DNA of 64,000 bases from a virus (taxonomy: Duplodnaviria; Heunggongvirae; Uroviricota; Caudoviricetes), in IMG/VR virus record IMGVR_UViG_3300037423_000296, positions 11,541 through 75,540 of that record. One strand, 5' to 3'. Below, piece by piece: positions 693-55,423 of the stretch (position 1 is its first letter; every line of letters begins with the position of its first letter). The notes below the pieces were generated by a model. The model was not told where the DNA came from and searched no databases. It saw only the letters and a program-made list of their open reading frames with translations. A program made the translations under genes and the position numbers.

Positions 693-839
693 GTTACAAC
701 GACGACGAGACTTGGACTATCACCGAGGAAGGGCGGGTTCTCACCAAGAAAGCCCACGTTCTCTTGGATGAAGGATGGGAAATGGACGAGGTTGCAAACT
801 TCCTTGGCCTTCCAAGTAAGCTCCATCTAATGATTCTGA

Positions 840-1785: not shown

Positions 1786-1937
1786 AAAAGTTGGGAATTC
1801 TACTCTTCCCGTTGGTTTGGCTTATGGCTAGAGCACCAGGAAAGGCCGATAAGTGCCTCATTACCTTGGCTGCAATGGTCGGGTCTATGGCACTATGGGC
1901 GGCATTGGCAACCGGAGTGGTTAAGGTATTGGTATGA
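1782..1937 (+). CDS. small membrane protein (51 aa)
   Basis: manual ORF; hydrophobic; ATGA overlap with next ORF. Confidence 0.35.
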   Translation: MKKLGILLFPLVWLMARAPGKADKCLITLAAMVGSMALWAALATGVVKVLV

Positions 1938-2110
1938 ACAACAAGCACATCTATATCGGTGGACCTGCTGATGGAGTTCGGACGGAAGTCGTAATCGATG
2001 GTCAGCCTAAAGAACTGGACAGTATTAGGCGCGATGGAACCTTGTATAGATTTAATGGAGTAGTCAATCACGACGGGTATCGAGAAATGATGTGTGAGGA
2101 AGTTGGCTAA
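1934..2110 (+). CDS. small hypothetical protein (58 aa)
   Basis: manual ORF, translationally coupled (ATGA). Confidence 0.35.
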   Translation: MNNKHIYIGGPADGVRTEVVIDGQPKELDSIRRDGTLYRFNGVVNHDGYREMMCEEVG

Positions 2111-2280
2111 TGATGAATAACTTGCGGGTATTCAATGGCAACTACAGGTTCCATGTCTACAAGGGTCGCAAGCTCGTGTACAATGGGAACAGTAGGTTCA
2201 TCGCCGGGATTTATCGGCTGATTGAACGATTCGACAAAAATTATTACGTGGGTGATTTGAATGGCACAAAAGGTAGGTAG
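2110..2280 (+). CDS. small hypothetical protein (56 aa)
   Basis: manual ORF. Confidence 0.3.
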   Translation: MMNNLRVFNGNYRFHVYKGRKLVYNGNSRFIAGIYRLIERFDKNYYVGDLNGTKGR

Positions 2281-2566
2281 CCTTCACGTACACGAACTTC
2301 CAGATAACCGCGACATCGAAATTAGGTCCGAAGTTTACCAATGTAACTGTGGTAGGGAGTTCTTCGTGGAGGAGAATAAGGAGTCCGGATGGGCTAAGCA
2401 ACCTAAGAAGTGGGTTGAGGTTGACTCGTCCTCCTTCTTGGTTGAGTATGACAGGACTGTCGAAGGACAGACCTTCATCGGACGGGCCACAGCAGAAACA
2501 GTATTCGATGAGCCTGCCTCAGAGGAGGTAATCGATGGCGGAACAGAACCAGCAACCACCGATTGA
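2261..2566 (+). CDS. hypothetical protein
   Basis: ORF track. Confidence 0.45.
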   Translation: MAQKVGSLHVHELPDNRDIEIRSEVYQCNCGREFFVEENKESGWAKQPKKWVEVDSSSFLVEYDRTVEGQTFIGRATAETVFDEPASEEVIDGGTEPATTD

Positions 2567-2744
2567 TTCGGTCTTTCATCCTGATAACATTGGGCCAGTA
2601 ACAGTCATCCAGCTAACCCGGCTTTATGATGCTGCGATGGCCTTGCTGGCTATTGCTGACCCAGAGAAGGCTCTTAAGATGGCTGAGGCTCACGCCAAGG
2701 GCATCACACTCACACCAGCCCCGGCTTTTACAGAAGAGGATTAA
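2535..2744 (+). CDS. hypothetical protein
   Basis: ORF track. Confidence 0.4.
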   Translation: MAEQNQQPPIDSVFHPDNIGPVTVIQLTRLYDAAMALLAIADPEKALKMAEAHAKGITLTPAPAFTEED

Positions 2745-3185
2745 ATGCTTACGTATTACACAGATGGTTCATGCGCTCCAACCAATCCAGGTCCGGGTGG
2801 TTTCGCCGTTATTCAAGACGGCAAGCCAGTCTATCTAGGCAAGGATGAATGGACAACCAATATCCGGATGGAGGGTGAAGCGATGCTTCACGCCATTGTT
2901 CATTCCAAAGGCAAGACGTGCACCATCTACTCAGACTCCGAATTCTGGATTAACGTCCTCACCAAGTGGGCTCCAGGCTGGAAGGGTAAGGGTTGGAAGA
3001 AGTCGAGTGGCGAAATCAAGAATCTCGACCTTGTGAAGGAGCTATACTCTGCCTACGTAGCATCTGATGCCAGGCTTGTTTGGGTCAAGGGCCACGCCGA
3101 TGATGTCGGAAATATCGCGGCTGATGAGTGGGCCAACAAAGCCAGAGAAGGTGTAACCCTTGATTTTCAAGACAATCACCGTTGA
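2745..3185 (+). CDS. rnhA: ribonuclease H (RNase HI family)
   Basis: YTDGSC N-terminal motif, overall RNase H-like sequence. Confidence 0.9.
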   Translation: MLTYYTDGSCAPTNPGPGGFAVIQDGKPVYLGKDEWTTNIRMEGEAMLHAIVHSKGKTCTIYSDSEFWINVLTKWAPGWKGKGWKKSSGEIKNLDLVKELYSAYVASDARLVWVKGHADDVGNIAADEWANKAREGVTLDFQDNHR

Positions 3186-3357
3186 ATTCTATGAGCCATG
3201 GGGTAAAGGGTTTCGGACATTCAACGGCTGGGTATATTACCTGGCAACAGTAAGTGACTACGTATTTTACGAAATTAGTCCCAGTGAGCACAAGCACAAG
3301 CCTCTTGCTACAATCGATAAGTCAAGGGTAAAGGCTATTACGGAGAAATTTCTATGA
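3160..3357 (+). CDS. hypothetical protein
   Basis: ORF track. Confidence 0.4.
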   Translation: MIFKTITVEFYEPWGKGFRTFNGWVYYLATVSDYVFYEISPSEHKHKPLATIDKSRVKAITEKFL

Positions 3358-3636
3358 ATGGCAAGGTCGCTTCATTCGTCCTAAGCGCTGTAGTCGCAGG
3401 ATTCCTTATGAGCCAATCCGACCACAAAGCATTGGACGACTGTAACCATAAGGACGGGATTTACATAAGTGGAGCCTGCCAAGAAAAGGAGGTAGTGTAA
3501 TGATTAAGGTCTATAAGGCTGGTAAGCTTGTAGCTTCATATGACCCAGCGCTGTATTATGCCGACCCAGCCGGTGGCAAGCTGAACATCCGCTTGCTCAC
3601 CACTCACGCAATTACAACCACCTATCAAATCGGTCA

Positions 3637-3828
3637 ATGGACGGACGTGAAGTGAAGAAAGTATGGATTGATATTAGCGAGGGCCATGTAGTTCTCTTTG
3701 ATAGTCATACCGGCGAGCCAATCGTCGGCTGGGCTGACGATGAGGACTGGGGTCTTAAGGAAGCCTACGCATACGTTGAACGCTACGGATTCCATGTTAC
3801 GCACGAAGTGAGGCCATTAGTTGACTGA
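3637..3828 (+). CDS. hypothetical protein
   Basis: ORF track. Confidence 0.4.
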   Translation: MDGREVKKVWIDISEGHVVLFDSHTGEPIVGWADDEDWGLKEAYAYVERYGFHVTHEVRPLVD

Positions 3829-4171
3829 CAATTGTGTATTTTGTGAAATTGTGAAAACTGGGGATGCTGAAGAGTTCTACCGGCATGACAAATTTGTCGT
3901 TTCGTTCGTCCCTCTTAACCCAGTAACGCCGGGTCACAGATTGTTTGTACCAGCAAGACATGGTGATGACATTGCCGATGACCCCACATGGGGAACTCTT
4001 GCAGTAAGAGCGGCAGCAGATTACGCTAATGCAAATGGACACGACTTCAACCTGATTACTTCTGGTGGCTCATTCGCTACCCAGACAGTGTTCCATACGC
4101 ACATTCACTATGTGCCCCGTCGAGAAAACGACGGGCTCTTCTTGCCATGGACGGAGCACTGGTGTCTATGA
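3821..4171 (+). CDS. HIT-family (histidine triad) nucleotide hydrolase
   Basis: HTHIHYVP histidine-triad motif, CVFC N-terminus. Confidence 0.85.
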   Translation: MTDNCVFCEIVKTGDAEEFYRHDKFVVSFVPLNPVTPGHRLFVPARHGDDIADDPTWGTLAVRAAADYANANGHDFNLITSGGSFATQTVFHTHIHYVPRRENDGLFLPWTEHWCL

Positions 4172-4410
4172 GACTAGTAATCGAATATCTTGATGGTACC
4201 AAGGATATTACTGGTGTTCTCGATAATGTAGAAACCTGGGAAGAATTTAACAAGATGTTCAGCGGTGGACCAGTTCACAGCATGACGGTACCTAAGTCGG
4301 ATGTCGGAATGATGTGGATTCCGGGTTCAGCTATCAAGAAAATTTACGAATACGTTCCCGTGCAAGAACCTATCAAGGTAAAGAAGGTTCCAAAATGGAG
4401 TTCGAAATGA
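4147..4410 (+). CDS. hypothetical protein
   Basis: ORF track. Confidence 0.45.
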   Translation: MDGALVSMRLVIEYLDGTKDITGVLDNVETWEEFNKMFSGGPVHSMTVPKSDVGMMWIPGSAIKKIYEYVPVQEPIKVKKVPKWSSK

Positions 4411-4562
4411 ACGATATCGACAAAAGAATCGAGAGGGCAGGAGAATATCAAGACACTCGCGGCAAATGTGTAATTTGCGGCGGCTGGTTTCAGGTCTGTC
4501 CTCACAGTATGACTCAGTGTAATCTTGCGATAGAGTACTATAGAATGAGGAGGTGTACATGA
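4407..4562 (+). CDS. small zinc-ribbon protein
   Basis: CVICGG...CPHSMTQC; ATGA overlap with upstream gene. Confidence 0.35.
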   Translation: MNDIDKRIERAGEYQDTRGKCVICGGWFQVCPHSMTQCNLAIEYYRMRRCT

Positions 4563-4888
4563 ACATCGTAAAACCAACTTTGCCAGATGGATGGACATTC
4601 TCCGTTTACTTTGACGATACCCTTGGAACTTCAGTAATCCAATGCTCAGGTCCAGGGTATAACTGGTCAGCACAGGTTGTTAAAAGCGCCGACCCAAATG
4701 CTGTCGAGCAGAATGTTAATAGCATTCTCGCGGATTACGCAGATAGAGCGGCGGCTGCCGAAAAGGTTAGAGCAGACTGGTCAAAGAAGCAGCTAGCAGA
4801 AGCACAAGACAGGATTGCTGCAAAGGCTCTGTCCGATGAAATCAAGCGGGCTCTTCCAGGCACTCCACGACAGATTCAGGGAAGATAA
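4553..4888 (+). CDS. hypothetical protein
   Basis: ORF track. Confidence 0.45.
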   Translation: MYMNIVKPTLPDGWTFSVYFDDTLGTSVIQCSGPGYNWSAQVVKSADPNAVEQNVNSILADYADRAAAAEKVRADWSKKQLAEAQDRIAAKALSDEIKRALPGTPRQIQGR

Positions 4889-4890
4889 TC

Positions 4891-5085
4891 ATGATGGAAG
4901 CATACGCAGCAGTTCACGGAGTGGATGAAGATGATAAGTTTGTCATTACAATTCATGAAAGGGATACTGATACTCTACAAGTGAAGTTCCGAATTAACAA
5001 TTGCACTAAGTTCACCGTCAAGATTATGCAGTTCGTTGAAGAGGAAGCTTCAAAAAGGAATTACAACGTAGTGGAGTGGAGATGA
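4891..5085 (+). CDS. hypothetical protein
   Basis: ORF track. Confidence 0.4.
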   Translation: MMEAYAAVHGVDEDDKFVITIHERDTDTLQVKFRINNCTKFTVKIMQFVEEEASKRNYNVVEWR

Positions 5086-5282
5086 CCGTACAAAAGGGAC
5101 CGGCTCTATGCAATGAATACCTCATCCTAGATGAGGGAACAACTCTAGCCGTATGCTACACAGAGCTTCCTTGCTCAAAGGAGCATGCAACGGAGCGAGA
5201 AATCGCGGCTTGGCGTGAGCGTGTAGAATCACGTATTGCAGAACTAGAAGCAGAGTATTGGAGATTGAAGGATTCAGAATGA
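5076..5282 (+). CDS. hypothetical protein
   Basis: ORF track. Confidence 0.4.
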   Translation: MEMTVQKGPALCNEYLILDEGTTLAVCYTELPCSKEHATEREIAAWRERVESRIAELEAEYWRLKDSE

Positions 5283-5476
5283 AAGATTTCGCCGGAAAGG
5301 AATTTGAGGTCGGCCAAACGGTAGCCTTGTGTCTTCCCTACTACAAACATCTCGTAAAAGGCCGGGTTGAGAAGATTGGTAACAAGATGGTCTCCTGTTC
5401 ATACAAAGGCCCATGGGGAGAAGACACCACAGCAAGGTATCCCAATCAGGTGATTATCATGGACGACAATGACTGA
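5258..5476 (+). CDS. hypothetical protein
   Basis: ORF track. Confidence 0.4.
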   Translation: MEIEGFRMKDFAGKEFEVGQTVALCLPYYKHLVKGRVEKIGNKMVSCSYKGPWGEDTTARYPNQVIIMDDND

Positions 5477-5660
5477 CCTAGACAAGCTAAAGAGTCTTCT
5501 CGATGAATGGGAAGTCCCATACGAAGAAGAGGATAACGCCATCACGCTCGAAGCCAATCAGTGGGATGACGATGCAAAGGTAACCGGCTATAGCGGCTTT
5601 GTAACACATGTTACTTTTGATGAAGAAGGCAAATTTCGCCGGATTGGTATTTGGGAATGA
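5469..5660 (+). CDS. hypothetical protein
   Basis: ORF track. Confidence 0.4.
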   Translation: MTDLDKLKSLLDEWEVPYEEEDNAITLEANQWDDDAKVTGYSGFVTHVTFDEEGKFRRIGIWE

Positions 5661-5817
5661 CAGAAACAGAACTAGATGAACTAAAGAACAAATGGTTCCA
5701 TCTCGGATGGGAGGCGGCTCTACGAGAGGTCGTCCTTTGCGAAGAATCTACAGATTACGGCGGTGTAGAATTCGCACGGGATTGGTTGAAGAGTCATGCC
5801 AAGGAGGTAGGTAAGTA

Positions 5818-6045
5818 ATGACAGATATCGGTCCCAAGACATATGTACTCAAGGGAGGGGCTCATGACGGATTAATTCTAAGGTCAATAAGCCCTATTAA
5901 GTCGATTGCTGTCGATGACAACGCATATGCAGATATGGGCGATGTCGATGAGAACGGATTCGTAGTACTAGAGAATGCAGTCGTCCTTGGATTGTCAAAA
6001 CTCGGCAAAGACCCTCTTGGTGGAGATGGCAAGAAGCTCTTCTGA
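5818..6045 (+). CDS. hypothetical protein
   Basis: ORF track. Confidence 0.4.
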   Translation: MTDIGPKTYVLKGGAHDGLILRSISPIKSIAVDDNAYADMGDVDENGFVVLENAVVLGLSKLGKDPLGGDGKKLF

Positions 6046-44575: not shown

Positions 44576-44851
44576 TTAAACCCAGTCGTTTTCGTTGATG
44601 CCTTCCTTGCCATGTTTGCACAAGTCTACATGACGACCACACCTTGAGCAAATGGCTTCCTGAGATGCGTAGTAGTGCTTAGGGGGAGCGCTAGGCGACT
44701 CCCCCATTACACTCTCAGCCTTATCAGGCTCAGTAGTCGTCATCTTCGTCGTCGTCTTCATCGTACTCTGGACACTCGTAGTACTCGTGGTCATCGTCAC
44801 CGCAATTCTCACAGTACAAAGTGTCGAAGTCGTTCTCGTCCAACTCGCCAA
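44576..44851 (-). CDS. hypothetical Cys-containing protein (true start probably internal)
   Basis: ORF track. Confidence 0.35.
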   Translation of the reverse strand: MASWTRTTSTLCTVRIAVTMTTSTTSVQSTMKTTTKMTTTEPDKAESVMGESPSAPPKHYYASQEAICSRCGRHVDLCKHGKEGINENDWV

Positions 44852-45680
44852 CTACATTGGCATAATCGGACTTGAGCAGAGGAGCGCTGACCTCTTCATC
44901 GGCAACGTCAATTACGACGTAGCGACAAACGCGAATCTTCGCCTCGTTGTGCTCAGTCGGCACAGAGACAACATCGCGAGGGTTGATAGCAACCTTCACA
45001 CGACCATTTCCGTAACCACGGGCATAGTCGAACGTTCCGGCATGCAGACCAGTCGAGCATCCCTCGGCAGGGTTGAATTCAACCTCGCTACGCGGCATCT
45101 CAACCGTGTCACCAATGCGCTGGGGAATCTGCTGGTTCTCGAACAACTCGCCATTGACGATTGCCGTACCAGAGTGCCACGACTTGTAGACCTTGCCGTT
45201 CTCATCCTCCTCAACGTAGAGACCCTTGTAGGCAACAAGGTCACCGTCAGAGGTAATCGTGATTGACGGACGAGCCTTGACCCAGCCGTAAAGCTGCTCA
45301 CGGCTGTGAGGCTCAGGGTTGAGAGACACCTTGTCTAGGAAGTTGACCAAAGGCATGAAGTCTTCGTCAGCCTCAAGCATTCGCAGAATGTGGTCAGTGA
45401 TGGCGTTGTCAACGTGGTCACCGTCGAAGTATACCTTGCCATTGGCAACGGAGATTCGGTCGGTCAGACGCTCAAAACGCTTTGCCACCTCTTCAGCCGG
45501 GTCAAAGAGTCGGACGACAGACTCATCACCGGAAGTAATCCCGGCAACAATCTGGTCCCAATTCTTGTGGTCCTGGTTTGCAACGTACATCTCACCGTCA
45601 ATAAAAGCGGTGACGCTGGACTCATTTCCAACGCTTACGAGATTATACTTGATTGTTCTTCTCCTTCTGGTAAATTGCAT
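44730..45680 (-). CDS. rIIB: rIIB-like protein (by size and position immediately downstream of rIIA-like)
   Basis: 316 aa, overlaps rIIA-like end; acidic C-terminus; no motif-level confirmation. Confidence 0.5.
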   Translation of the reverse strand: MQFTRRRRTIKYNLVSVGNESSVTAFIDGEMYVANQDHKNWDQIVAGITSGDESVVRLFDPAEEVAKRFERLTDRISVANGKVYFDGDHVDNAITDHILRMLEADEDFMPLVNFLDKVSLNPEPHSREQLYGWVKARPSITITSDGDLVAYKGLYVEEDENGKVYKSWHSGTAIVNGELFENQQIPQRIGDTVEMPRSEVEFNPAEGCSTGLHAGTFDYARGYGNGRVKVAINPRDVVSVPTEHNEAKIRVCRYVVIDVADEEVSAPLLKSDYANVVGELDENDFDTLYCENCGDDDHEYYECPEYDEDDDEDDDY

Positions 45681-47559
45681 TCATGTATAGGTAGACATGC
45701 TCTTTATTGCTACCACAGTTACCCCTGGCAAGCGGGTACTTATTGAATGGGTCGGTAATATCTTCCGACTTAATCTCTCCGTGAGCGTACTCGATTGCCC
45801 TGGCAAATTCACACGCCGCGTACCAATCCTTCATGGTGTCGGTGAGCGGTTCCTGCTTCGCATTGCATGCATTGATGAATGCGACCATCTCAGGGTCGTC
45901 AATGCGAGTGGGGTCAAGCTTCTGAGCGTTGACTCTGGAGTAGTAATCTACGTCAGTCATTCTACGCCTATCGGTCTTGGTAAGTCCAGCCTTCGCGAAC
46001 ATTACCTTGTCCTTAATCCACTGCTCCAAATCCTCAGAGTCAGGGTTGGCTTTCTTGAACCTATCAAGCTCATTCTTGTACAGAATGACGATTTCGTAAT
46101 CCTTGAGAATAGTGGTGAGGTTCTTCCACTTAATCTTCCGGCGACCCGGCACAATGTACATGACATTCTTGGTGTCATCCAAATCAGCCTTGGTTGTCGT
46201 GTATCCGTGCGCAGTCAGGGTGTTGTACTCAACAACCTTCTTGTCAGACTTGGCACGAACTAGCTTGATAGCCTTGATAGTCTCAAAGGGCACCGTCCGA
46301 ATTTCGGCCAGACGCTTCGTGTCAGGGTGCTTCTCCATCAAGAATACCTTGTACGGACGCTCGCCTGCCGGAAGATTCTCAATGTAGTGACGAATCTTCT
46401 GTCGGTAGTTCGTAGGAAGCTTCTCACCAGTAAACCCAGTGATGGTCAGATATTGAGAGAAATTCTTCCAGTCGATGTGCCTCGGGAAGGTTACTGCATG
46501 ACGCTCATGGCTGTGAGCGAAAGACATCGCTTCCGGCGCTTCACCGTAATTGAATTCCCACGTCTGCTTCAGTTCCTCACCCTTGTAGGTGTAATTGTGA
46601 GAAATCATGAATGAACGCTTGTCATGAGTCTTGAGAGCTTCAAGGTAGGTGGGCTGGGCATCAATCTCGGCCTGGATTTGGTTGGCAATTCCTGCCTTAG
46701 CCTCTGCCGACAGCTTGGAGATTGTCTCCTTGGTCTTGTCGGTGTACATCAATTCCTCGCGGTTCGGAGGAAATGCCACATCACCAATCTCGACAAAGGC
46801 TACCAAGTGATAATCGCCGTAGTGTTCGGCAAGACCGTCAGCCTTGTAGGGAACATTTCCCATAACTACGTACGATGTACCCTGACCGGGAAGAGCGACA
46901 ATGTTGTCAGTGACCCACAAAGCATCCTTGTGGTCTCCGATGAATTCCGGCTGCTTGTCGTCAACAAGAACAGTACCCGGAGTCCAGTACTTGAAGAAAT
47001 GCTCCACCCTTGCAGTGAAGTCACTAGTGTACTTGACGGGAATGATGATTTCCACACCAGACGGCTCATCGGTAATCGACGTGTCAACAATCTCCATTAC
47101 GCCAGAGCCGTACTCATCCTTGCTCACCATTACAAGAATCTTCACACCTTGGTGAATGGATACAATCTGGAATTGAGCCGTGTAAGTCAAGCCAGACTTA
47201 CTTCCAAGACCCAGCATTCCAACCTGAGAATCAGTATCTCTCTTGGTTGAATTCCAGTATTGAGAGTAGACGTTCTCAATGAAATCTACAGACATTCCAT
47301 TGCCAAAATCCCGAATTTTGAAGAACGGGCTAAGCGCGCTGGGACTGTGAATCTCGATTGGAACATTTGCCTTGCCAGCGTCAATATGAGCATCACGAGC
47401 ATTCGTGCTGTATTCTCGAATGATTGCCTTGATTGGGTCTGCGTACATATCTGTCAAGGTGCTCATGGCGAATTGTAGACTGTGCATATCCATCGTCATC
47501 TCAATACGCTTACCGCCGAGATTGCCGCTGGTTTGAATGTCTAGTGGTGCTGGACGCAT
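45643..47559 (-). CDS. rIIA: rIIA-like protein with N-terminal GHKL (HATPase_c) ATPase domain
   Basis: N box REYSTNARDA, G1 box IRDFGNGMS, G2 box GMLGLGSKSG. Confidence 0.75.
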   Translation of the reverse strand: MRPAPLDIQTSGNLGGKRIEMTMDMHSLQFAMSTLTDMYADPIKAIIREYSTNARDAHIDAGKANVPIEIHSPSALSPFFKIRDFGNGMSVDFIENVYSQYWNSTKRDTDSQVGMLGLGSKSGLTYTAQFQIVSIHQGVKILVMVSKDEYGSGVMEIVDTSITDEPSGVEIIIPVKYTSDFTARVEHFFKYWTPGTVLVDDKQPEFIGDHKDALWVTDNIVALPGQGTSYVVMGNVPYKADGLAEHYGDYHLVAFVEIGDVAFPPNREELMYTDKTKETISKLSAEAKAGIANQIQAEIDAQPTYLEALKTHDKRSFMISHNYTYKGEELKQTWEFNYGEAPEAMSFAHSHERHAVTFPRHIDWKNFSQYLTITGFTGEKLPTNYRQKIRHYIENLPAGERPYKVFLMEKHPDTKRLAEIRTVPFETIKAIKLVRAKSDKKVVEYNTLTAHGYTTTKADLDDTKNVMYIVPGRRKIKWKNLTTILKDYEIVILYKNELDRFKKANPDSEDLEQWIKDKVMFAKAGLTKTDRRRMTDVDYYSRVNAQKLDPTRIDDPEMVAFINACNAKQEPLTDTMKDWYAACEFARAIEYAHGEIKSEDITDPFNKYPLARGNCGSNKEHVYLYMNAIYQKEKNNQV

Positions 47560-48342: not shown

Positions 48343-48423
48343 ACGTGGACGCGGCGGTGGAGGAGGTGGTGGTGCAGGTAGTTGTGACGGGTCATCATGT
48401 GGTTCCCATGGATTTCTCATAAG

Positions 48424-48506
48424 TAGCGACTGTGGGAGTCGAACCCACACCCCATTTCTGAGACTGCATTTTGAGTGCAGCGCGGCTGCCGTTACGCCAA
48501 GTCGCC
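48424..48506 (-). tRNA. tRNA-Leu (CAA), long variable arm
   Basis: manual cloverleaf; loop CUCAAAA. Confidence 0.75.
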
Positions 48507-48588
48507 AAATTCCTAGAAATCGGTCCCATTACTATTCTAGGCGGATTTCGGTTGCCACTAATGGGTTGAGCGAACCTACTTTCGTCTG

Positions 48589-48660
48589 TGGATGGTGAGG
48601 GAATCGAACCCCCGACGACTTGCGTGTCGAGCAAGCATTCTACCGCTGAATTAACCATCC
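48589..48660 (-). tRNA. tRNA with anticodon GAC (Val?) and non-canonical C33
   Basis: manual cloverleaf; loop UCGACAC; acceptor and T-arm perfect. Confidence 0.5.
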
Positions 48661-48661
48661 A

Positions 48662-48814
48662 TGGCCCCTCGTCTGGACTCGATACCAGAACCCCCGGTTT
48701 ATGAGACCGGAATGCTAACCGTGCGGGAACACGGGTTATGCCATTCGTTCAACCAGGGACTTGTACAGGTTCCCGCCCGTACAGAGGCTTAATTGAATAG
48801 AGGCATACTTACAC
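48662..48814 (-). ncRNA. unresolved tRNA-like segment (anticodon-arm-like hairpin CCGGU-CUCAUAA-ACCGG with CAU; T-like arm with 8-nt loop; no canonical acceptor)
   Basis: manual folding failed to give a canonical cloverleaf. Confidence 0.25.
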
Positions 48815-48886
48815 CATCTCGGGGTGCTCCCAGGGAATTTCGAAATCCCGGCCTTCTGTGTGTAAGACAGACGCTCTTCCTCTGAG
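48815..48886 (-). tRNA. tRNA-Val (UAC)
   Basis: manual cloverleaf; loop CUUACAC. Confidence 0.7.
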
Positions 48887-48972
48887 CTACAGGAGCTTGG
48901 AAGCGCGGTTTTAGAGCCCGCGCTACTTATCTCGTTACACTGTGTCACATTCTAGACTGCTCAACAATGCCT

Positions 48973-49046
48973 TGGCTGGGGAAGTAGGATTCGAACCCAC
49001 ACAGCAGGAACCAAAATCCTGCGTCCTGCCATTAGACGATTCCCCA
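48973..49046 (-). tRNA. tRNA-Gln (UUG), U1-A72, CCA encoded
   Basis: manual cloverleaf; loop UUUUGGU. Confidence 0.75.
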
Positions 49047-49115
49047 ATAAATGCAGAGGCTCTATTTGAGCTACACCCAACGGGGATGGGATTACACCCA
49101 CATCTCTCTGCACAG
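49047..49115 (-). pseudogene. possible tRNA remnant (acceptor/D-arm-like GGGUGUAGCUCAAAUAGAGC, no 3' half)
   Basis: manual reading. Confidence 0.25.
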
Positions 49116-49198
49116 TACGGATAACAGGAGTCGAACCTGCACGCCCTCTCGGGCACTGCGTTCTAAGCGCAGCGTGTCTGCCATTTCACCATATCCGC
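49116..49198 (-). tRNA. tRNA-Leu (UAG), long variable arm
   Basis: manual cloverleaf; loop CUUAGAA. Confidence 0.8.
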
Positions 49199-49286
49199 AT
49201 GTTCGGAGGGATGCTCAACCCTGAAGGTCTCTTGCCATTCCCTCCGAAGTACTTCTATTCTAGCACAGTCTCTCTGACTAGTGCAA

Positions 49287-49790
49287 CTACGGAAGAGCAA
49301 TCCACTTGGTGACAGTTACTTCCTTGCCGACAACCGGGAAAATCGTGCAGTTGCCGTGCCAGGGCTCAGTGCCATCGTAGGAAGAGTAGAAGTGGTCGAA
49401 CTTATAGTGCTGGTCGCCAATCTTGACGATAATCCACAACTCCTCGCCCATTCCCTCCCCACCGTAAGAATCTACCAAAGTAGCAATCCCAAGGCCGGGA
49501 AGCTCAACACCTTCCTTCGGGAAATCGTACGCCTCGTAGAAGCCTTCCGCAAGCTGGGTTGCAACATCTTCACGGTTGAACTCTTCGGGAGTCGTTGGGT
49601 AAGGAACCTTCTTAGGTTCACCCCTATAACCGCCGTAGCTGTACACCGTACGACCGCCGTACTTCTCGTTGTATTCCTTGTTATTCTTGATTGACTCGGC
49701 AATGCTAGCATCCACCTGAGACTCAGCCCAGGCATTGATGGCATTGTGAATCTGAGTGCCGGTGAAATAATTCACTTCTTGACCTTCCAA
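49287..49790 (-). CDS. paralog family C member 4 (C-terminal HYKFDHFYSSYDGTEPWHG)
   Basis: shared FFKK(T/E)G.Y.SY(D/E)G..WDG motif across four tandem ORFs. Confidence 0.5.
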   Translation of the reverse strand: MEGQEVNYFTGTQIHNAINAWAESQVDASIAESIKNNKEYNEKYGGRTVYSYGGYRGEPKKVPYPTTPEEFNREDVATQLAEGFYEAYDFPKEGVELPGLGIATLVDSYGGEGMGEELWIIVKIGDQHYKFDHFYSSYDGTEPWHGNCTIFPVVGKEVTVTKWIALP

Positions 49791-50128
49791 TCCGTAACAG
49801 TCTTCTCGAAAGGCTCGACCTCGAAAAGCTCGCCATCCCAGTTACTACCGTCATAAGACATGTAGTAACCCTCCTTCTTGAAGAACTGAGTGTTGCCTTC
49901 GCCATCCGTGACAGACCAAACCTGCCAGATGTACTCGGCAGAGCCCTCTCCACCAGTCTCACCGTCGATGTACTTGGCAAATCCGAATTCACCAAGATTC
50001 AGGTCTTCCTTGCCATAGTGAGCCTCGTGCCAGAATTCAGAGCCCTCTAGCTCGTAGTCGTCACCATCGTCAATACCCTCATCAATGAGGTTTTCGAACT
50101 GCTTTGCGGTAATCAAATCTCTACCCAT
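49772..50128 (-). CDS. paralog family C member 3
   Basis: FFKKEGYYMSYDGSNWDGE. Confidence 0.5.
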   Translation of the reverse strand: MGRDLITAKQFENLIDEGIDDGDDYELEGSEFWHEAHYGKEDLNLGEFGFAKYIDGETGGEGSAEYIWQVWSVTDGEGNTQFFKKEGYYMSYDGSNWDGELFEVEPFEKTVTDWKVKK

Positions 50129-50394
50129 TCCTCTCGTAGAACCTCGCGCTTTTCAACCTGCACGAGTGGACCGTCCCAGACAGCCCCTTCGTATGACTGG
50201 TAATAGCCGGTCTTCTTGAATGTCTGACCGTTCAAGCGGACGACCTTGTAAAGCTCGCCTTCATTGTTCTCGCCACGCTGGTTCTCTTCGACAATCTCCA
50301 CCAAGCCGTACGGAGTCGAAACTTCGTCTTCTTCGTAGTGGAGAAAGTACCAGTTAATGGCGCAATCTAGGTCTGTCAGCGTAAAGCTCATCAA
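50113..50394 (-). CDS. paralog family C member 2
   Basis: FKKTGYYQSYEGAVWDGP. Confidence 0.5.
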   Translation of the reverse strand: MMSFTLTDLDCAINWYFLHYEEDEVSTPYGLVEIVEENQRGENNEGELYKVVRLNGQTFKKTGYYQSYEGAVWDGPLVQVEKREVLREEWVEI

Positions 50395-50696
50395 TTACCC
50401 TTCGGGACAAAGACTATTACAGTCTTGGTGGTTCCGAATACCTCGGTGACTGGGCCGTCCCAACTACGGATTTCATCGTAGGAATCCATTCGACCAGTCT
50501 TCTTGAAGAACCGGTTGCCAACCTGGAAGATGACGTAAATCTCATCCTCACTCTGGAGGTAATCTCCATAGCCATCAGTTGGCCGGTTGTGAACTTCCAC
50601 AACGGTAGCCTCGGTTCCCTGAGCCAGCGGGACTACATTGTGCTTAGAGCCCAGGCCACTTCTGAACATGGCGTCCCAATTGTCTGTCGTGTACAT
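50391..50696 (-). CDS. paralog family C member 1
   Basis: FFKKTGRMDSYDEIRSWDGP. Confidence 0.5.
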   Translation of the reverse strand: MYTTDNWDAMFRSGLGSKHNVVPLAQGTEATVVEVHNRPTDGYGDYLQSEDEIYVIFQVGNRFFKKTGRMDSYDEIRSWDGPVTEVFGTTKTVIVFVPKGN

Positions 50697-50704
50697 TTTC
50701 TCCC

Positions 50705-51451
50705 TTAGAGTAGAATCAGTTTGTGTGACTTCGCCTTGTGTTGCGCTACGTAGTCAAAGTCAGGCTTGTAAAGGTCTTTGTAGTTCAAAATAATGAACAA
50801 AGCCCATTCATTCTTGAACAGCGACGTAATGGATTTCTTCATGGCCTTAGCATATGCCATGCGCGGGCTAACCCGGTAATCTGCTGGGATTACCCAGCGC
50901 TCAAGTGCTGTCGCATAGACTTCCTCGCGGATAGTCTTGAGCTTGTCCTCGTGGCTCATTGCCCAGAACTTATCGTTATCGACAAGGACATCTGAGCCCT
51001 CTTTCAGAATCCTAATATACATGGCTTCGTCGCCGTATGCAACACTGTCATGCAGAGAATCGTGGTCATACTTTCGGATAACCGCGTCTCCGAAGAAGTC
51101 TTTCTTGGTCTTGTTAAGGTTGACTCTCTTCTGGCCGTGAACTTCCATCCACACGGGATGGAGAATTTCCCACATAGCCCGGTCGAATTGTACGCCGTTA
51201 TGCTGGAAGAAGAGGATGTCATTCATGTGCTTCTCCCACGAGCCATTCTGCAATGCCCACGGAGAGTGACTGACCTTGATGGTGTAAAGCTCTCGCGGCC
51301 AGGCTACTCGATTGGTGCCCCACTCTTCCGGAAAAGACTCATGCCAGAAGTTGTCACCTGGCAAATCCGGGTCAGGAGAGAAATGGTCCTCATCCTTTGG
51401 CTCACGAAAGTCTGGATACCAACCCTTCATTGCTTTAGAACCGATTAGCAT
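50705..51451 (-). CDS. hypothetical protein (248 aa); weak nucleotidyltransferase-like GS...DED signature at N-terminus
   Basis: ORF track; IGSKAMKGWYPDFREPKDEDHF. Confidence 0.5.
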   Translation of the reverse strand: MLIGSKAMKGWYPDFREPKDEDHFSPDPDLPGDNFWHESFPEEWGTNRVAWPRELYTIKVSHSPWALQNGSWEKHMNDILFFQHNGVQFDRAMWEILHPVWMEVHGQKRVNLNKTKKDFFGDAVIRKYDHDSLHDSVAYGDEAMYIRILKEGSDVLVDNDKFWAMSHEDKLKTIREEVYATALERWVIPADYRVSPRMAYAKAMKKSITSLFKNEWALFIILNYKDLYKPDFDYVAQHKAKSHKLILL

Positions 51452-51465
51452 TTCTCTCCTAACTC

Positions 51466-51684
51466 TTAGATAAGACCCTTGGACTTTGCTGCAATTGCGG
51501 CGGCACTAAGAGCGCAAGCGCTATTCTCAGAACCCCAGCAACGAGCCTTCTTCGTAACCTTAATGCCATCACGAATTGCATCTGCAAGACTGTAGGGCTT
51601 GGTAAGAAGGTCAAGCTCGATGTTTGCCAGGTCGGCCTTCATAAGCTCAGAAAGCTCATCAGCCTTTGTCTCTCTAGTAATCAA
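51466..51684 (-). CDS. hypothetical protein
   Basis: ORF track. Confidence 0.45.
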   Translation of the reverse strand: MITRETKADELSELMKADLANIELDLLTKPYSLADAIRDGIKVTKKARCWGSENSACALSAAAIAAKSKGLI

Positions 51685-51685
51685 T

Positions 51686-52681
51686 TTAGTTCTCCTTTTC
51701 AGTGGTAGTACTATTGTCTCTCAAGGAGAGGTCTACGTCAAGACTCTCAAGCCAATCCGCGATTTCTTCTCGTGACCATTCTCCACTGCCATTCTCATGG
51801 TAACCCTTGTCATTAAGATGAATGATGATTGCCTGAATGGTATTAGATGTGCTCAGGCCCATCTTGCATCCACAGGGATACTTTACCTTCTCGTTGAGGC
51901 CGGGGCAAATCTCTCTCAGAAGGACGGCAGAGTCACCGTAGTCATCTCCTCCCATGTGCCCGCCAGTCGCCAAGTCCTTGTCAAACTTGGGAACAATGTC
52001 ACCCTTCTTCACTCCGTGATGCCACCAGTCCTTATTGACATCATTCATAATACCAAATTGGCGAGCCCGTTTATACGGATAGTAACCATTCGGGTTGTCC
52101 CAAAAGAAGTCTAGCTGGTCAAGGTAGCCCTTGGATTTTAGATATTCATAGGACTGCATGGTATGTGGGAATGTAGATGCAACCTGGTCAATGTCACCGA
52201 CATCCTTGGCAAAAATCGAATGCGCATTGTGAAGTGCATACATTATATGAAGTTTATCGTCACACGTCATGCACATCTTGCGCAGGGTGTCAAAGAAAGC
52301 ATCCTTGGTATTATTTCCAATAAAGTACTCAGAGGTAAACTTCATTGCAAAGATGGAAGTTTTTTGCATTGCCATAACACTGATAGCGAGTGAGAACATA
52401 TCAGTCTTCGGATGGTAATGCCATTCTTTGGTGACATTATCCACACCCCATAGATGAGCGGCGGCTTGTCCAAGGTAATCCGCCATTTTCTTAATGGCGT
52501 CATGTGGCAACAGCCACTCGGGCTCCGTGTATTGAAATGCAGAGATAATAGCCTCCCCGGACTCTTGTGCAGTTTTCTTCATGGCAAGCATACCGGCAGT
52601 CATACCGCCAAAATCAAAAGACACACTATCAATATCGATTTTCGAAATGATGTGTGTCTTCTTTGGAAATTCTTTTGTCAT
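51686..52681 (-). CDS. hypothetical protein (331 aa; start at MTKEFPKK because longer ORF overlaps tRNA-Ser)
   Basis: ORF track trimmed. Confidence 0.55.
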   Translation of the reverse strand: MTKEFPKKTHIISKIDIDSVSFDFGGMTAGMLAMKKTAQESGEAIISAFQYTEPEWLLPHDAIKKMADYLGQAAAHLWGVDNVTKEWHYHPKTDMFSLAISVMAMQKTSIFAMKFTSEYFIGNNTKDAFFDTLRKMCMTCDDKLHIMYALHNAHSIFAKDVGDIDQVASTFPHTMQSYEYLKSKGYLDQLDFFWDNPNGYYPYKRARQFGIMNDVNKDWWHHGVKKGDIVPKFDKDLATGGHMGGDDYGDSAVLLREICPGLNEKVKYPCGCKMGLSTSNTIQAIIIHLNDKGYHENGSGEWSREEIADWLESLDVDLSLRDNSTTTEKEN

Positions 52682-52704
52682 TACTAATCTTTCGGTCAAT
52701 GAAG

Positions 52705-52789
52705 CGGCGAGTGTGGGATTCGAACCCACGGTGGTTTTACCCACACAGACTTAGCAGGTCTGCCTAATCAGCCTCTCTAGCAACTCACC
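52705..52789 (-). tRNA. tRNA-Ser (GCU), long variable arm
   Basis: manual cloverleaf; loop CUGCUAA. Confidence 0.8.
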
Positions 52790-52912
52790 AAGTGGAAGTG
52801 GGCACATGACCGTTTGTCGTTTAAGTCAACGTGATTCCCGAATCCGGCCTTACCCGAGAGCCACCTTATCCTAGGTTGGTGGTCGGTGACACGTTAAACC
52901 CCTACTCCCAAG

Positions 52913-52995
52913 CGGTGGGTAAGGGATTCGAACCCTTGGGAGTTTCCTCCGCTGCCTTTCCAAGACAGTGCACTAGACCTCTATGCGAACCCACC
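52913..52995 (-). tRNA. tRNA-Ser (GGA), long variable arm
   Basis: manual cloverleaf; loop UUGGAAA. Confidence 0.8.
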
Positions 52996-53147
52996 AATAA
53001 GCAGCGCTCTTCCGCTGAGCTACCCGAACTTTTACATAAGGGGCTGGATTCGAACCAGCGACCTCTGCTGTCGGTAGCGCTCTGCCATTGAGCTACAACC
53101 CCGGTTGCCCGAAGCTGGCGGGACTCGAACCCGCAACCTCTACCACG
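52996..53147 (-). pseudogene. cluster of degenerate tRNA-like pieces (5' half GUUCGGG-UAGCUCAGCGGAAGAGC; near-complete tRNA-like with T-arm GCUGG-UUCGAAU-CCAGC but acceptor missing about 4 nt; T-arm GCGGG-UUCGAGU-CCCGC)
   Basis: manual folding; no canonical cloverleaf recoverable. Confidence 0.35.
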
Positions 53148-53229
53148 TGCACACAGAGAGATTCGAACTCTCACGCCACTAGGACACAGCGCCCTCAACA
53201 CTGCGCGTCTACCGTTCCGCCATGCGTGC
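53148..53229 (-). tRNA. tRNA-Leu (GAG), long variable arm
   Basis: manual cloverleaf; loop UUGAGGG. Confidence 0.75.
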
Positions 53230-53310
53230 AAATGCTACCATTCTGAGTTTCACAGTGTTTGGTAGCAGGAGTAAACTGAGCTTGATATTATCTCCTCAGC
53301 AATTACCCCT

Positions 53311-53388
53311 TGGAGCCCAGTGTCGGTTTCGAACCGACCGCCTCGAATTTACAAGATTCGCGCTCTACACCAAATGAGCTAACCGGGC
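53311..53388 (-). tRNA. tRNA-Thr (UGU), CCA encoded
   Basis: manual cloverleaf; loop CUUGUAA. Confidence 0.8.
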
Positions 53389-53481
53389 AGGACCGTACGT
53401 GCTATCTACACTACTTAGAGTCTCAGAGTTTGCAACCTCAATCAACCCTTACAGGGATTCTCACCACTGCTCTTTACGGAT

Positions 53482-53557
53482 GGCTGGCCTAATAGGACTC
53501 GAACCTATAACCGGTCGGTTAACAGCCGACTGCTCTGCCAATTGAGCTACAGACCAA
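53482..53557 (-). tRNA. tRNA-Asn (GUU), CCA encoded
   Basis: manual cloverleaf; loop CUGUUAA. Confidence 0.85.
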
Positions 53558-54697: not shown

Positions 54698-54712
54698 CTC
54701 TTCCTCTCTAAT

Positions 54713-54790
54713 TGTGGAGTCGCGGGGAATTGAACCCCGGTCCTTTGCATTCAATCGTACATCCGAATTACAGCCATCCCTATTCTTTAG
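54713..54790 (-). ncRNA. tRNA-like fragment (perfect T-arm CGGGG-UUCAAUU-CCCCG; no acceptor partner found)
   Basis: manual reading. Confidence 0.3.
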
Positions 54791-55108
54791 ACCTTTACGA
54801 TTGAAGGTGGTCCCAGGATAAGTCCGTCTACCTCTGGCCTTTTAAACTGATGCCGAGCAGTAGGGGGGGTGAACAGTTTGTAGGCGAAGCCACTGTTCGA
54901 TTTCCACCACTGACCTTTCTGTTCCTAGGCAGTCAGCGCCCGATGCTCAATCCTCAGACTGAAGCAAGGTCGTACTCAGCGCAAAGCGCCTCGTACTCTG
55001 CATCAATGTTGTCAGTTGCAGTTATTGTTTGTCAAGTGTTTAACGACTCTCTCAACGAAGTCGGGCTGCGTTCATACTCTCTAGTTCAAAGTCGATACCT
55101 TTCGACCC

Positions 55109-55423
55109 CTAAGGCAAATATACTTTTGCCAAGTTATTGTCTACAAGTAGTTTATTGAGACTTTCAGTACCGGCGAAAACCTCTGCCAGCCAGCGACCGT
55201 ACTTCTCTTTCTTGTAGGTATTGATTGTAACTGTTGGATTCTTTGCAAAGAAGGACTTTACGAAGGCTGTTGCCTCTGCCCATCCTACCTGACCACGCTC
55301 TGGCGTGTCAATTCCATACAATCTGAAAACCGTATCAACTCTAATATCAAATCCCAGGTCTACTGTTAGTTCTACAGTATCACCATCTACCGCTCTAACA
55401 AAGTCTGCCTTGTATTGGTACAT
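55109..55423 (-). CDS. thermonuclease (staphylococcal nuclease-like, SNase domain)
   Basis: VRAVDGDTVEL..RLYGIDTPE..KYGRWLA motifs. Confidence 0.8.
   Translation of the reverse strand: MYQYKADFVRAVDGDTVELTVDLGFDIRVDTVFRLYGIDTPERGQVGWAEATAFVKSFFAKNPTVTINTYKKEKYGRWLAEVFAGTESLNKLLVDNNLAKVYLP

What the first reader, a model, noticed from the sequence alone, without database searches (positions are those of the whole stretch)
49287..50696. Four tandem paralogs sharing FFKK(T/E)G-Y-SY(D/E)G--WDG, embedded between tRNA clusters
Four consecutive minus-strand ORFs of 93-167 aa all carry the same C-terminal motif. Gene boundaries overlap by 4-19 nt, which implies translational coupling. The motif is unfamiliar to me. 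It is possibly a novel small-domain family expanded by duplication.
Basis: seen in the sequence. Interest (0 to 1): 0.6.

Follow-up and report, generated by a model that had tools for sequence, protein, structure and literature searches.

The report
Four acidic partners of a phage nucleotidyltransferase
The four small genes are real duplicated copies of an uncharacterised phage protein domain that almost always sits directly behind a nucleotidyltransferase-like enzyme gene, so they most likely work with that enzyme; what the pair does is untested.

Summary
Four contiguous minus-strand genes (49287-50696) share a ~70-residue C-terminal beta-rich domain (GGEG...FFKKxGYYxSYDGxxWDG), are under purifying selection, and have start/stop overlaps.

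The main new point is the link to the upstream gene (50705-51451, Pfam DUF7277+DUF7275). In 82 of 85 informative loci from phages, prophages and metagenomes, a DUF7275 gene has 1-4 small-domain genes beside it on the same strand, nearly always just downstream. One phage has five copies.

All 219 small-family proteins examined are acidic (pI 4.05-5.36). One Ser is invariant in 237 of 237 domains.

Best reading: these are co-translated partner proteins, probably inhibitor- or immunity-like, of a phage nucleotidyltransferase. The genetic link is shown; the mechanism is inferred. The tRNA neighbourhood is common (32 of 74 loci) but not a constant feature.

The parts
50391..50696 (-). ORF1, 101 aa, pI 4.99. 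First small-domain paralog. ATG start lies 8 nt after the DUF7275 stop, with the Shine-Dalgarno sequence AAGGGAG spanning that stop.
   Evidence: (dN/dS 0.09). An identical protein (P0038) occurs on JGI metagenome contigs.
50113..50394 (-). ORF2, 92-93 aa, pI 4.33. Second paralog. The probable ATG start at 50391 shares 1 nt with the ORF1 stop (TGATG).
   Evidence: (dN/dS 0.07)
49772..50128 (-). ORF3, 118 aa (114 aa if it starts at TTG 50116, giving a TTGA overlap), pI 4.14. Third paralog and the one closest to the family consensus. AF2 model: two N-terminal helices plus a five-stranded antiparallel sheet, pLDDT 86.8.
   Evidence: (dN/dS 0.37)
49287..49790 (-). ORF4, 167 aa (162 aa if it starts at GTG 49775, giving a GTGA overlap), pI 4.72. 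Fourth paralog, with an ~85-aa N-terminal extension and a degenerate motif (HYKFDH...SYDG..WHG).
   Evidence: (dN/dS 0.16)
50705..51451 (-). Partner gene, 248 aa. Pfam DUF7277 (N-terminus, 25.7 bits, just below the 27-bit cutoff) plus DUF7275 (182.6 bits); phrog_6944. Invariant G4-S5...D20-x-D22 and a cluster of invariant His, Asp, Arg and Glu residues. The AF2 model is closest to the MenT4, MenT1 and MenT3 nucleotidyltransferase toxins.
   Evidence: dN/dS 0.11
51466..52744 (-). Two tightly packed upstream genes on the same strand (72 aa at 51466..51684; 352 aa at 51686..52744, called as 337 aa by JGI). Probably the same transcription unit, but found only in the closest relative, so not part of the conserved module.
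48423..49198 (-). Downstream tRNA cluster on the same strand: Leu-CAA, Val-GAC, Val-TAC, Gln-TTG, Leu-TAG.
52704..53556 (-). Upstream tRNA cluster on the same strand: Ser-GCT, Ser-GGA, Leu-GAG, Thr-TGT, Asn-GTT, plus a weak extra Rfam tRNA match at 53037-53102.
49202..49248 (-). Stable RNA hairpin (10-bp G+C-rich stem) between the ORF4 stop and tRNA-Leu. It could be a processing or termination signal. It has no U-tract.
   Evidence: z = -2.87; 0 of 200 shuffles fold as well

Best explanation
The four ORFs are diverged tandem paralogs of a small, uniformly acidic alpha+beta domain. They act as the partner component of a conserved two-part phage module. The other part is the gene directly upstream, a DUF7277/DUF7275 protein with a MenT/AbiEii-like nucleotidyltransferase (NTase) fold.

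All five genes are probably made from one transcript. Stop/start overlaps of 1-4 nt (or up to 19 nt with the longest ORFs) would tie partner synthesis to synthesis of the enzyme.

The preferred mode of action is that the acidic proteins bind the enzyme and restrain or gate it, as an antitoxin or immunity protein would. They may do so by occupying the surface that would otherwise hold a nucleic-acid substrate. Duplication would have produced several diverged binders.

Shown here: paralogy, coding status, the near-obligate gene linkage, family-wide acidity, and the invariant Ser and GGEG residues. Inferred: NTase activity, physical binding, the direction of regulation, and the substrate (tRNA or other RNA).
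For: **Gene linkage.**
- In 82 of 85 loci that carry a DUF7275 gene and have at least 400 nt of downstream DNA, 1-4 small-domain ORFs are present. All are on the same strand and none on the opposite strand. The median distance from the end of the DUF7275 match to the first small-domain hit is about 110 nt.
- The same arrangement is seen in Streptomyces phage Sham (genes 201 | 202, 203), Gordonia phage OneUp (gp10 | gp11, gp12) and Mycobacterium phage WXIN (one DUF7275 gene followed by five paralogs with 4-nt overlaps).
- It is also seen in Vibrio phage K460.
- Seven of the nine loci found through a small-domain motif alone have DUF7275 next to the small-domain genes. The other two are cut off at that point.
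- Record counts match by genus: Gordonia 25 and Streptomyces 21 for both families.

**The enzyme.**
- The AF2 model has pLDDT 91.4.
- G4-S5 is conserved in at least 90% of sequences. D20 and D22 are invariant and sit on a strand-helix-strand element, as in Pol-beta-type NTases.

**The partners.**
- All 219 small-family proteins examined have pI 4.05-5.36, median 4.38. DUF7275 proteins have a median pI of 6.1.
- MenT toxins have an electropositive substrate surface and are neutralised by small, diverse antitoxins (PMC7450476; PMC10435456 abstract).
- The partners diverge faster than the enzyme. Against L010, dN is 0.32-0.38 for ORF3 and ORF4 but 0.078 for DUF7275.
- Copy number varies from 1 to 5.
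- 20 of the 219 family proteins examined carry two small domains in one chain, which suggests that copies act together.

**Operon structure.** The spacer between DUF7275 and ORF1 is 8 nt and carries the Shine-Dalgarno sequence. The other three junctions overlap by 1-4 nt with the probable starts (4-19 nt with the longest ORFs), and no convincing internal terminator was found.
Against: - No physical interaction, enzyme activity or toxicity has been shown. No multimer model could be run.
- The G-S to D spacing is 14 residues, one more than the textbook x9-13.
- A Ser conserved in 237 of 237 domains, with a GGEG loop at 82-89%, suggests a conserved chemical role such as catalysis, ligand binding or a modification site, not just a binding surface that is free to drift.
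- A plain inhibitor should need one copy, not four.
- The partners lie downstream of the enzyme, unlike MenA and AbiEi antitoxins.
- The longer T4-type homologs (RB69 ORF134c) have no such partner.
- Three loci carrying the most distant DUF7275 genes also lack a partner.
Confidence: 0.5

Rival explanations
1. The small proteins are substrates or carriers. The NTase would covalently nucleotidylylate the invariant Ser (ORF3 S91, in the SYDG turn) or the neighbouring Tyr of each small protein. This would resemble GlnD acting on PII, or MNT acting on HEPN. The modified proteins would then carry out the real function.
For: - One Ser is conserved in 237 of 237 domains. The next residue is aromatic (Y, H or W) in 90% of them.
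- In the model the Ser lies in a turn between strands.
- The partner is an NTase-like enzyme with many invariant polar residues.
- Linkage is near-obligate.
- From established knowledge: NTase-fold enzymes do modify Tyr on small partner proteins, as GlnD does to PII and MntA does to HepT.
Against: - There is no direct evidence.
- The closest structural matches (MenT) act on tRNA 3' ends, not on proteins (PMC7450476).
- An S-x-D-G turn can be conserved for structural reasons alone.
- Solvent exposure of the Ser could not be measured, because the tools do not return model coordinates.
Confidence: 0.15
2. The small proteins are specificity adaptors. Each paralog would bind a different target, such as a particular host tRNA, RNA or protein, and present it to the single NTase. 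Copy number would then track the number of targets.
For: - One enzyme gene is paired with 1-5 diverged partner genes at 23-33% identity.
- N-terminal regions vary while the C-terminal domain is conserved.
- tRNA genes lie within 6 kb in 32 of 74 loci, and directly adjacent in this window and in OneUp.
Against: - Family-wide acidity (pI about 4.4) argues against direct RNA binding.
- More than half of the related loci have no nearby tRNA genes.
- No known RNA-binding or protein-binding fold was detected.
Confidence: 0.15
3. The small proteins have an independent function. They would be acidic decoys or inhibitors of host defence proteins, for example nucleic-acid mimics or inhibitors of host MenT/AbiEii-type toxins. 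Their position next to DUF7275 would reflect shared timing of expression, not a joint mechanism.
For: - The proteins are strongly acidic and small, occur in tandem arrays of variable copy number, and diverge quickly. From my own knowledge, these traits are typical of phage anti-defence genes.
- They lie in an early-type region with rIIA/rIIB-like genes and tRNAs.
Against: - Shared timing alone does not explain adjacency in 82 of 85 loci, always on the same strand, across phages of Actinomycetota and a Vibrio phage that share no other conserved neighbours.
Confidence: 0.15
4. The ORFs are not real genes, or the shared motif is a chance or low-complexity resemblance.
For: The weakest pairs (those with ORF1, 13.8-15 bits) score no better than the best of 2000 shuffles per query, which reached 14.6 bits.
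Against: - dN/dS is 0.07-0.37 against orthologs.
- Orthologs of each of the four exist on many contigs.
- All four match one PHROG profile at E 4e-10 or better.
- The AF2 model is confident.
Confidence: 0.01

Closest known systems
PHROG families phrog_18295, phrog_8206 and phrog_13591 (small domain) and phrog_6944 / Pfam DUF7275+DUF7277 (partner)
   Same: - All four ORFs match these small-domain profiles, and the upstream gene matches phrog_6944 and DUF7275.
- Members in Streptomyces, Gordonia and Mycobacterium phages have the same gene order.
   Different: - These are catalogue entries with no assigned function.
- No paper in the searchable library mentions them.
- The linkage between the two families is not recorded in either catalogue.
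MenAT (MenT1-4 with MenA) and AbiE (AbiEii with AbiEi) nucleotidyltransferase toxin-antitoxin systems
   Same: - They are two-gene modules made of an NTase-fold enzyme and a small or diverse neutralising partner.
- MenT4, MenT1 and MenT3 are the best structural matches of the DUF7275 model.
- MenT enzymes are found in Actinomycetota and act on tRNA acceptor ends (PMC7450476, PMC10435456, PMC11541572). The window module lies among tRNA genes.
   Different: - The partners lie downstream, not upstream, and occur in 1-5 copies.
- The partners are beta-rich, acidic and unrelated to MenA1 (MazE-like), MenA3 or AbiEi.
- The module is carried by lytic-type phages and by prophages, not by chromosomal TA loci.
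- Toxicity is untested.
NTase-modifies-partner systems: HEPN-MNT (type VII TA) and GlnD-PII
   Same: An NTase-fold enzyme is genetically or functionally paired with a small protein. That protein carries a strictly conserved hydroxyl residue, which is the site of nucleotidylylation (named from established knowledge).
   Different: - The small domain has neither the HEPN fold (all-alpha, Rx4-6H) nor the PII fold.
- No modification has been shown here.
Polymorphic toxin loci with tandem immunity-gene arrays
   Same: The enzyme gene is followed directly, on the same strand, by a variable number of small, fast-diverging, tightly packed paralogs. The comparison with immunity arrays is from my own knowledge.
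   Different: - The DUF7275 protein has no secretion or trafficking domain.
- There are no alternative toxin cassettes.
- The partner domain keeps invariant residues across all phyla sampled, which is unusual for immunity proteins.

Membership tests
phrog_18295 / phrog_8206 (uncharacterised phage small-domain family) | Significant profile-HMM match over the conserved C-terminal domain | tested here: met
   all four ORFs match phrog_18295 at E 3.9e-10, 8.9e-14, 2.3e-20 and 3.3e-12, and also match phrog_8206; family HMM E 6e-27 to 2e-40.
DUF7275 + small-domain module (defined here) | One or more small-domain genes on the same strand directly beside, usually downstream of, a DUF7275 gene | tested here: met
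   Window: the DUF7275 gene at 50705..51451 is followed after 8 nt by ORF1-4. The pattern is present in 82 of 85 informative loci.
MenAT / AbiE (DUF1814 NTase toxin-antitoxin) | The enzyme belongs to the DUF1814 / AbiEii sequence family | tested here: not met
   only DUF7275 and DUF7277 are reported; the profile gives no PDB or PADLOC sequence match.
MenAT / AbiE (DUF1814 NTase toxin-antitoxin) | Pol-beta-type NTase motif I, hG[GS]x9-13Dh[DE]h, on a strand-helix-strand element | tested here: inconclusive
   G4-S5 is conserved in at least 90% of sequences; D20 and D22 are invariant. They sit on the expected secondary-structure elements. The spacing is 14 residues, one more than the motif allows.
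MenAT / AbiE (DUF1814 NTase toxin-antitoxin) | Fold similarity to solved MenT or AbiEii structures | tested here: inconclusive
   [not shown]
MenAT / AbiE (DUF1814 NTase toxin-antitoxin) | An upstream antitoxin of MenA or AbiEi type (MazE-like, COG5340 or wHTH) | tested here: not met
   The partners are downstream. They have no Pfam, PADLOC or NCBIfam match. Their fold is a beta-sheet plus two helices with no PDB relative.
MenAT / AbiE (DUF1814 NTase toxin-antitoxin) | The enzyme is growth-inhibitory and is neutralised by its partner; the enzyme extends tRNA 3' ends | not testable with these tools
   This needs expression and toxicity assays and tRNA 3'-end sequencing.
HEPN-MNT type VII toxin-antitoxin | The partner is an all-alpha HEPN domain with an Rx4-6H motif | tested here: not met
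   The model is beta-rich, and there is no HEPN match in Pfam.
Acidic nucleic-acid-mimic anti-defence proteins (Ocr, ArdA or Ugi type) | Strong net negative charge together with structural similarity to a known mimic | tested here: inconclusive
   [not shown]

The most novel reading that the evidence does not exclude
A widespread and so far undescribed two-component phage system. A minimal MenT-like nucleotidyltransferase would work with a dedicated family of small acidic proteins through a conserved chemical step at their invariant Ser. That step could be covalent nucleotidylylation, or a Ser/GGEG site that binds the enzyme's nucleotide or tRNA-end substrate. The system would let tRNA-rich actinophages manipulate, or protect themselves from manipulation of, tRNA 3' ends during infection.
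Probability: 0.15. Interest if true: 0.75.

Novelty: new variant of a known kind. Interest (0 to 1): 0.5.

Why it matters
NTase toxins of the MenT/AbiEii type are an active topic in tuberculosis biology and in abortive-infection defence. They block translation by altering tRNA acceptor ends.

If phages of Actinomycetota and some Proteobacteria carry a distant relative of these enzymes that is always escorted by its own family of acidic partner proteins, three things follow:
- It points to a phage-side use, or counter-use, of the same chemistry.
- It gives a possible rationale for the module's position among phage tRNA genes.
- It assigns a testable role to thousands of 'hypothetical' genes: 3396 small-domain cluster representatives and 731 phage records with DUF7275.

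The small domain also has no solved structural relative and has an absolutely conserved Ser, which makes it a well-defined target for structure and mass-spectrometry work. If the link turns out to be only regulatory or incidental, the result is still useful. It would be a curated description of a common but ordinary phage gene pair.

Tried and rejected
**Database and fold searches that found nothing useful.**
- Megablast of the region against 50,697 phage records gave no match, so no close sequenced relative is available.
- Pfam, PADLOC and NCBIfam scans of the four ORFs gave nothing above noise.
- Profile searches of PDB sequences with A1, A2 and A4 gave nothing.
- Foldseek against BFVD returned only uncharacterised members of the same family.
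- The afdb50 library was unavailable.

**Locus searches that failed or were limited.**
- The search for related loci with the small-domain alignment failed, because the alignment had no stretch conserved enough to search with.
- A strict back-translated motif search found only 9 loci. This makes the reverse association (small domain implies DUF7275) thinner than the forward one.

**Analyses that were uninformative.**
- Assigning distant copies to ORF1-, ORF2-, ORF3- or ORF4-type orthologs was not informative beyond the closest relative. Most distant copies simply score best with ORF3, which is closest to the consensus.
- No fusion of DUF7275 with the small domain was found among 339 retrieved proteins.
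- The upstream 72-aa and 352-aa genes and the downstream small genes occur only in the closest relative. I rejected them as module components.
- Literature searches for DUF7275, DUF7277, the PHROG identifiers and phage-encoded MenT-like enzymes found nothing specific.
- The promoter and terminator scan gave no convincing internal signals.

Full report
**The observation**

The window holds four back-to-back minus-strand ORFs:
- 50391..50696, 101 aa
- 50113..50394, 93 aa
- 49772..50128, 118 aa
- 49287..49790, 167 aa

It covers about 70 C-terminal residues: a hydrophobic strand, a GGEG loop, a second strand, then FFKKxG-YYxSYDG-xxWDG and a final ExxVTxW stretch. ORF1 has one extra residue before WDG. 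ORF4 is degenerate (HYKFDH...SYDG..WHG).

Pairwise phmmer scores are 13.8-38 bits. The best of 2000 shuffled sequences per query reached 7-14.6 bits, so the weakest pairs would be doubtful alone. Homology is settled by three other results:
- All four match phrog_18295 at E 4e-10 to 2e-20.
- All four match a family HMM at E 6e-27 to 2e-40, and nothing else in the window matches.
- Orthologs of each of the four occur on many metagenome contigs.

Against the ortholog array of a related phage contig (L010, about 81% DNA identity), dN/dS is 0.09, 0.07, 0.37 and 0.16. These are real genes under purifying selection.

**Gene junctions**

- With the longest ORFs the overlaps are 4, 16 and 19 nt, as reported.
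- Reading the DNA alongside ortholog N-termini favours ATG 50391 for ORF2 and GTG 49775 for ORF4, and allows TTG 50116 for ORF3.
- Those starts give TGATG, TTGA and GTGA junctions.
- ORF1 starts 8 nt after the stop of the upstream gene, and its Shine-Dalgarno sequence (AAGGGAG) spans that stop.
- No convincing internal promoter or terminator was found.
- The arrangement fits a single transcript with translational coupling. That is an inference from sequence.

**Where the window comes from**

- The window carries 33 tRNA genes and a tmRNA.
- It has an rIIA-like gene that is 36% identical to those of ~130-kb Streptomyces phages, followed by an rIIB-like gene.
- It has no close relative in GenBank phages.
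- ORF1 is identical to a protein on JGI metagenome contigs that repeat the same gene order.
- The window is therefore a large, uncultured, tRNA-rich phage, probably of an actinobacterial host. The host assignment is an inference.

**What is known about the small domain**

Searches against characterised families and structures gave nothing:
- No Pfam, NCBIfam or PADLOC match.
- No PDB sequence match.
- The ORF3 AlphaFold2 model is confident (pLDDT 86.8) and shows two N-terminal helices and a five-stranded antiparallel sheet.
- In BFVD it matches only uncharacterised members of its own family.

The family is nevertheless large and already catalogued:
- It corresponds to three PHROG families of unknown function.
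- It occurs in 50 Streptomyces, Gordonia and Mycobacterium phage records, usually with two or more copies each, all annotated as hypothetical.
- An exhaustive HMM search found 3396 cluster representatives at E ≤ 1e-3 and 894 at E ≤ 1e-10.
- 20 of the 219 family proteins examined carry two domains in one chain.

Across 237 diverse domains:

| Position | Conservation |
|---|---|
| Ser (ORF3 S91) | 100% |
| Val (ORF3 V104) | 99% |
| GGEG loop | 82-89% |
| Two Gly and one Tyr (G85, Y87, G94) flanking the invariant Ser | about 87% |
| Trp of WDG | 81% |

Every one of the 219 family proteins examined is acidic, with pI 4.05-5.36 and a median of 4.38. The four ORFs here have pI 4.1-5.0.

**The linkage to the upstream gene**

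The gene directly upstream (50705..51451, 248 aa) matches Pfam DUF7275 strongly, DUF7277 just below threshold, and phrog_6944. The same pairing appears in cultured phages:
- Streptomyces phage Sham: gene 201 (46% identical) followed by two small-domain genes.
- Gordonia phage OneUp: gp10 followed by gp11 and gp12, then a tRNA cluster.
- Mycobacterium phage WXIN: one DUF7275 gene followed by five paralogs with 4-nt overlaps.

I then fetched 74 IMG/VR loci and 14 loci from bacterial genomes, using only the DUF7275 alignment as the query. I scanned all reading frames with an HMM of the small domain. The results were:
- 82 of the 85 loci with at least 400 nt of downstream DNA carry small-domain ORFs.
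- All copies are on the same strand and none on the opposite strand.
- The first copy typically begins about 110 nt past the end of the DUF7275 match.
- Copy number per locus is 1 (23 loci), 2 (19), 3 (25) or 4 (15).
- The three exceptions carry the most distant DUF7275 genes.

The bacterial loci are mostly Actinomycetota, presumably prophages (Nocardia, Nonomuraea, Mycolicibacterium, Micromonospora, Brevibacterium). There are a few others: a Saccharimonadales MAG, a Cellvibrionaceae MAG and a Pararhizobium MAG.

The link extends to Vibrio phage K460, whose DUF7275 gene is followed two genes later by a clear family member (E 9e-16).

The reverse test is thinner. Of nine loci found with a small-domain motif alone, seven have DUF7275 next to the small-domain genes and two are cut off at that point. 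Genus-level record counts are identical for the two families, at Gordonia 25 and Streptomyces 21.

Other neighbours in the window are not conserved beyond the closest relative. The conserved unit is therefore DUF7275 plus a variable number of small-domain genes.

**What the partner enzyme looks like**

- The DUF7275 protein has 33 invariant residues among 40 homologs at 49-96% identity. They include D20 and D22, with G4-S5 conserved in at least 90%, plus a cluster of His, Asp, Arg and Glu residues.
- Its AlphaFold2 model (pLDDT 91.4) has a short N-terminal strand-helix-strand-strand element carrying G-S and D-x-D, followed by a helical lobe.
- MenT proteins are DUF1814 nucleotidyltransferase toxins of Mycobacterium tuberculosis. 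They add nucleotides to tRNA 3' ends, have an electropositive substrate surface and are neutralised by diverse MenA antitoxins (PMC7450476; abstracts of PMC10435456, PMC11541572 and PMC11375011).
- I therefore treat 'NTase-like, nearest to MenT' as a reasonable inference and not as family membership.
- DUF7275 is far more widespread than the small domain, with 731 phage records that include T4-like phages. The longer T4-type form (RB69 ORF134c, 318 aa) has no small-domain neighbour.

**Most likely mechanism**

The genetic evidence strongly indicates that the four ORFs function together with the NTase-like protein. I put about 0.8 on a functional link of some kind.

Several features point to partners that bind the enzyme and restrain or gate it, like an antitoxin or immunity protein:
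- The partners are uniformly acidic, while the enzyme's nearest structural relatives bind tRNA on a basic surface.
- The partners lie directly downstream and have coupled translation.
- Copy number is variable.
- The partners diverge faster than the enzyme (dN 0.32-0.38 for ORF3 and ORF4 against 0.078).
- Two-domain fusions exist.

Against a purely steric inhibitor stand the absolutely conserved Ser and the GGEG loop, and the fact that one copy should suffice. Two alternatives therefore stay open:
- The Ser (or the adjacent Tyr) is nucleotidylylated by the enzyme, as in GlnD-PII or MNT-HEPN.
- The paralogs are adaptors that present different targets to the enzyme.

A fourth reading is that they are independent acidic anti-defence decoys that merely travel with DUF7275. 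That reading fits the acidity and the copy-number variation. It does not explain why adjacency and strand are kept in 82 of 85 loci across unrelated phage backbones.

**tRNA context**

- In this window the module lies between two tRNA clusters, and a stable hairpin sits between the ORF4 stop and tRNA-Leu.
- OneUp has tRNAs directly downstream of the module.
- 32 of 74 related loci have tRNA genes within 6 kb.
- I did not compute a background rate, and more than half of the loci have no nearby tRNA.
- The association is suggestive, given the MenT link to tRNA 3' ends, but it is not a defining feature.

**Novelty and verdict**

- The family is already catalogued, though not characterised, and I found no literature on either family.
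  - the near-obligate pairing with a MenT-like NTase-fold gene
  - the family-wide acidity
  - the invariant Ser
  - the variable copy number, with four copies here being at the high end
- By architecture the module resembles NTase toxin-partner systems, but it fails their sequence-membership tests and differs in gene order, partner fold and copy number.
- I rate it as a new variant of a known kind, with moderate interest. The mechanism is inferred and needs the experiments listed under next steps.

Noticed in passing
window 54712-55109 (-): A phage-encoded tmRNA (Rfam RF00023, 96 bits). ARAGORN predicts the tag peptide ATDNIDAEYEALCAEYDLASV, which is long, acidic and unlike the usual ...ALAA-type tags.
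   Followed up: partly
window 18170-62166 (-): 33 tRNA genes covering most amino acids, all on the minus strand, interleaved with small ORFs. Rfam finds one extra weak tRNA-like match at 53037-53102 (34.6 bits) that ARAGORN did not report.
   Followed up: partly
window 44730-47559 (-): An rIIA-like gene (45643..47559, 638 aa, phrog_612; 36% identical to Streptomyces phage rIIA-like proteins) is followed by a 316-aa gene that JGI tags as Phage_T4_rIIB.
   Followed up: partly
window 49202-49248 (-): A stable hairpin with a 10-bp G+C-rich stem (-33.9 kcal/mol for the 96-nt stretch, z -2.87) lies between the ORF4 stop and tRNA-Leu(TAG). It has no U-tract, so it may be an RNA processing site and not a terminator.
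   Followed up: partly
window 51686-52744 (-): The longest form of the 352-aa ORF overlaps tRNA-Ser (52704-52789), so its true start must be further downstream. JGI calls it as 337 aa. It has no informative family match and, like the 72-aa gene after it, occurs only in the closest relative.
   Followed up: partly
L093 (phage RB69, NC_004928.1 67958-68914) and other T4-like phages: DUF7275 occurs in 731 phage records, including many T4-like phages. There it takes a longer form (318 aa, phrog_2141) with the same N-terminal G-S...D-x-D motif but no small-domain neighbour. One Acinetobacter phage record annotates it as 'putative nucleotidyltransferase'.
   Followed up: partly
L094 4273-4581 (Vibrio phage K460, VPHK460_0175): The 102-aa gene between DUF7275 and the clear small-domain member has a GEGEESGDVW stretch that resembles the GGEG loop, but it does not reach significance with the family HMM. 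It may be a very diverged copy.
   Followed up: no
window ~1-6000 versus 6000-64000: GC skew and AT skew change sign near 6 kb, and the longer ORFs switch from the plus to the minus strand there. This looks like a boundary between divergently transcribed blocks.
   Followed up: no
window 49287-50128 versus L010 7343-8148: Within an otherwise ~81% identical collinear region, ORF3 and ORF4 are only about 60% identical to their L010 orthologs. ORF2 is 96% identical and DUF7275 90%. This could reflect faster evolution or a recombination patch in the distal half of the array.
   Followed up: partly
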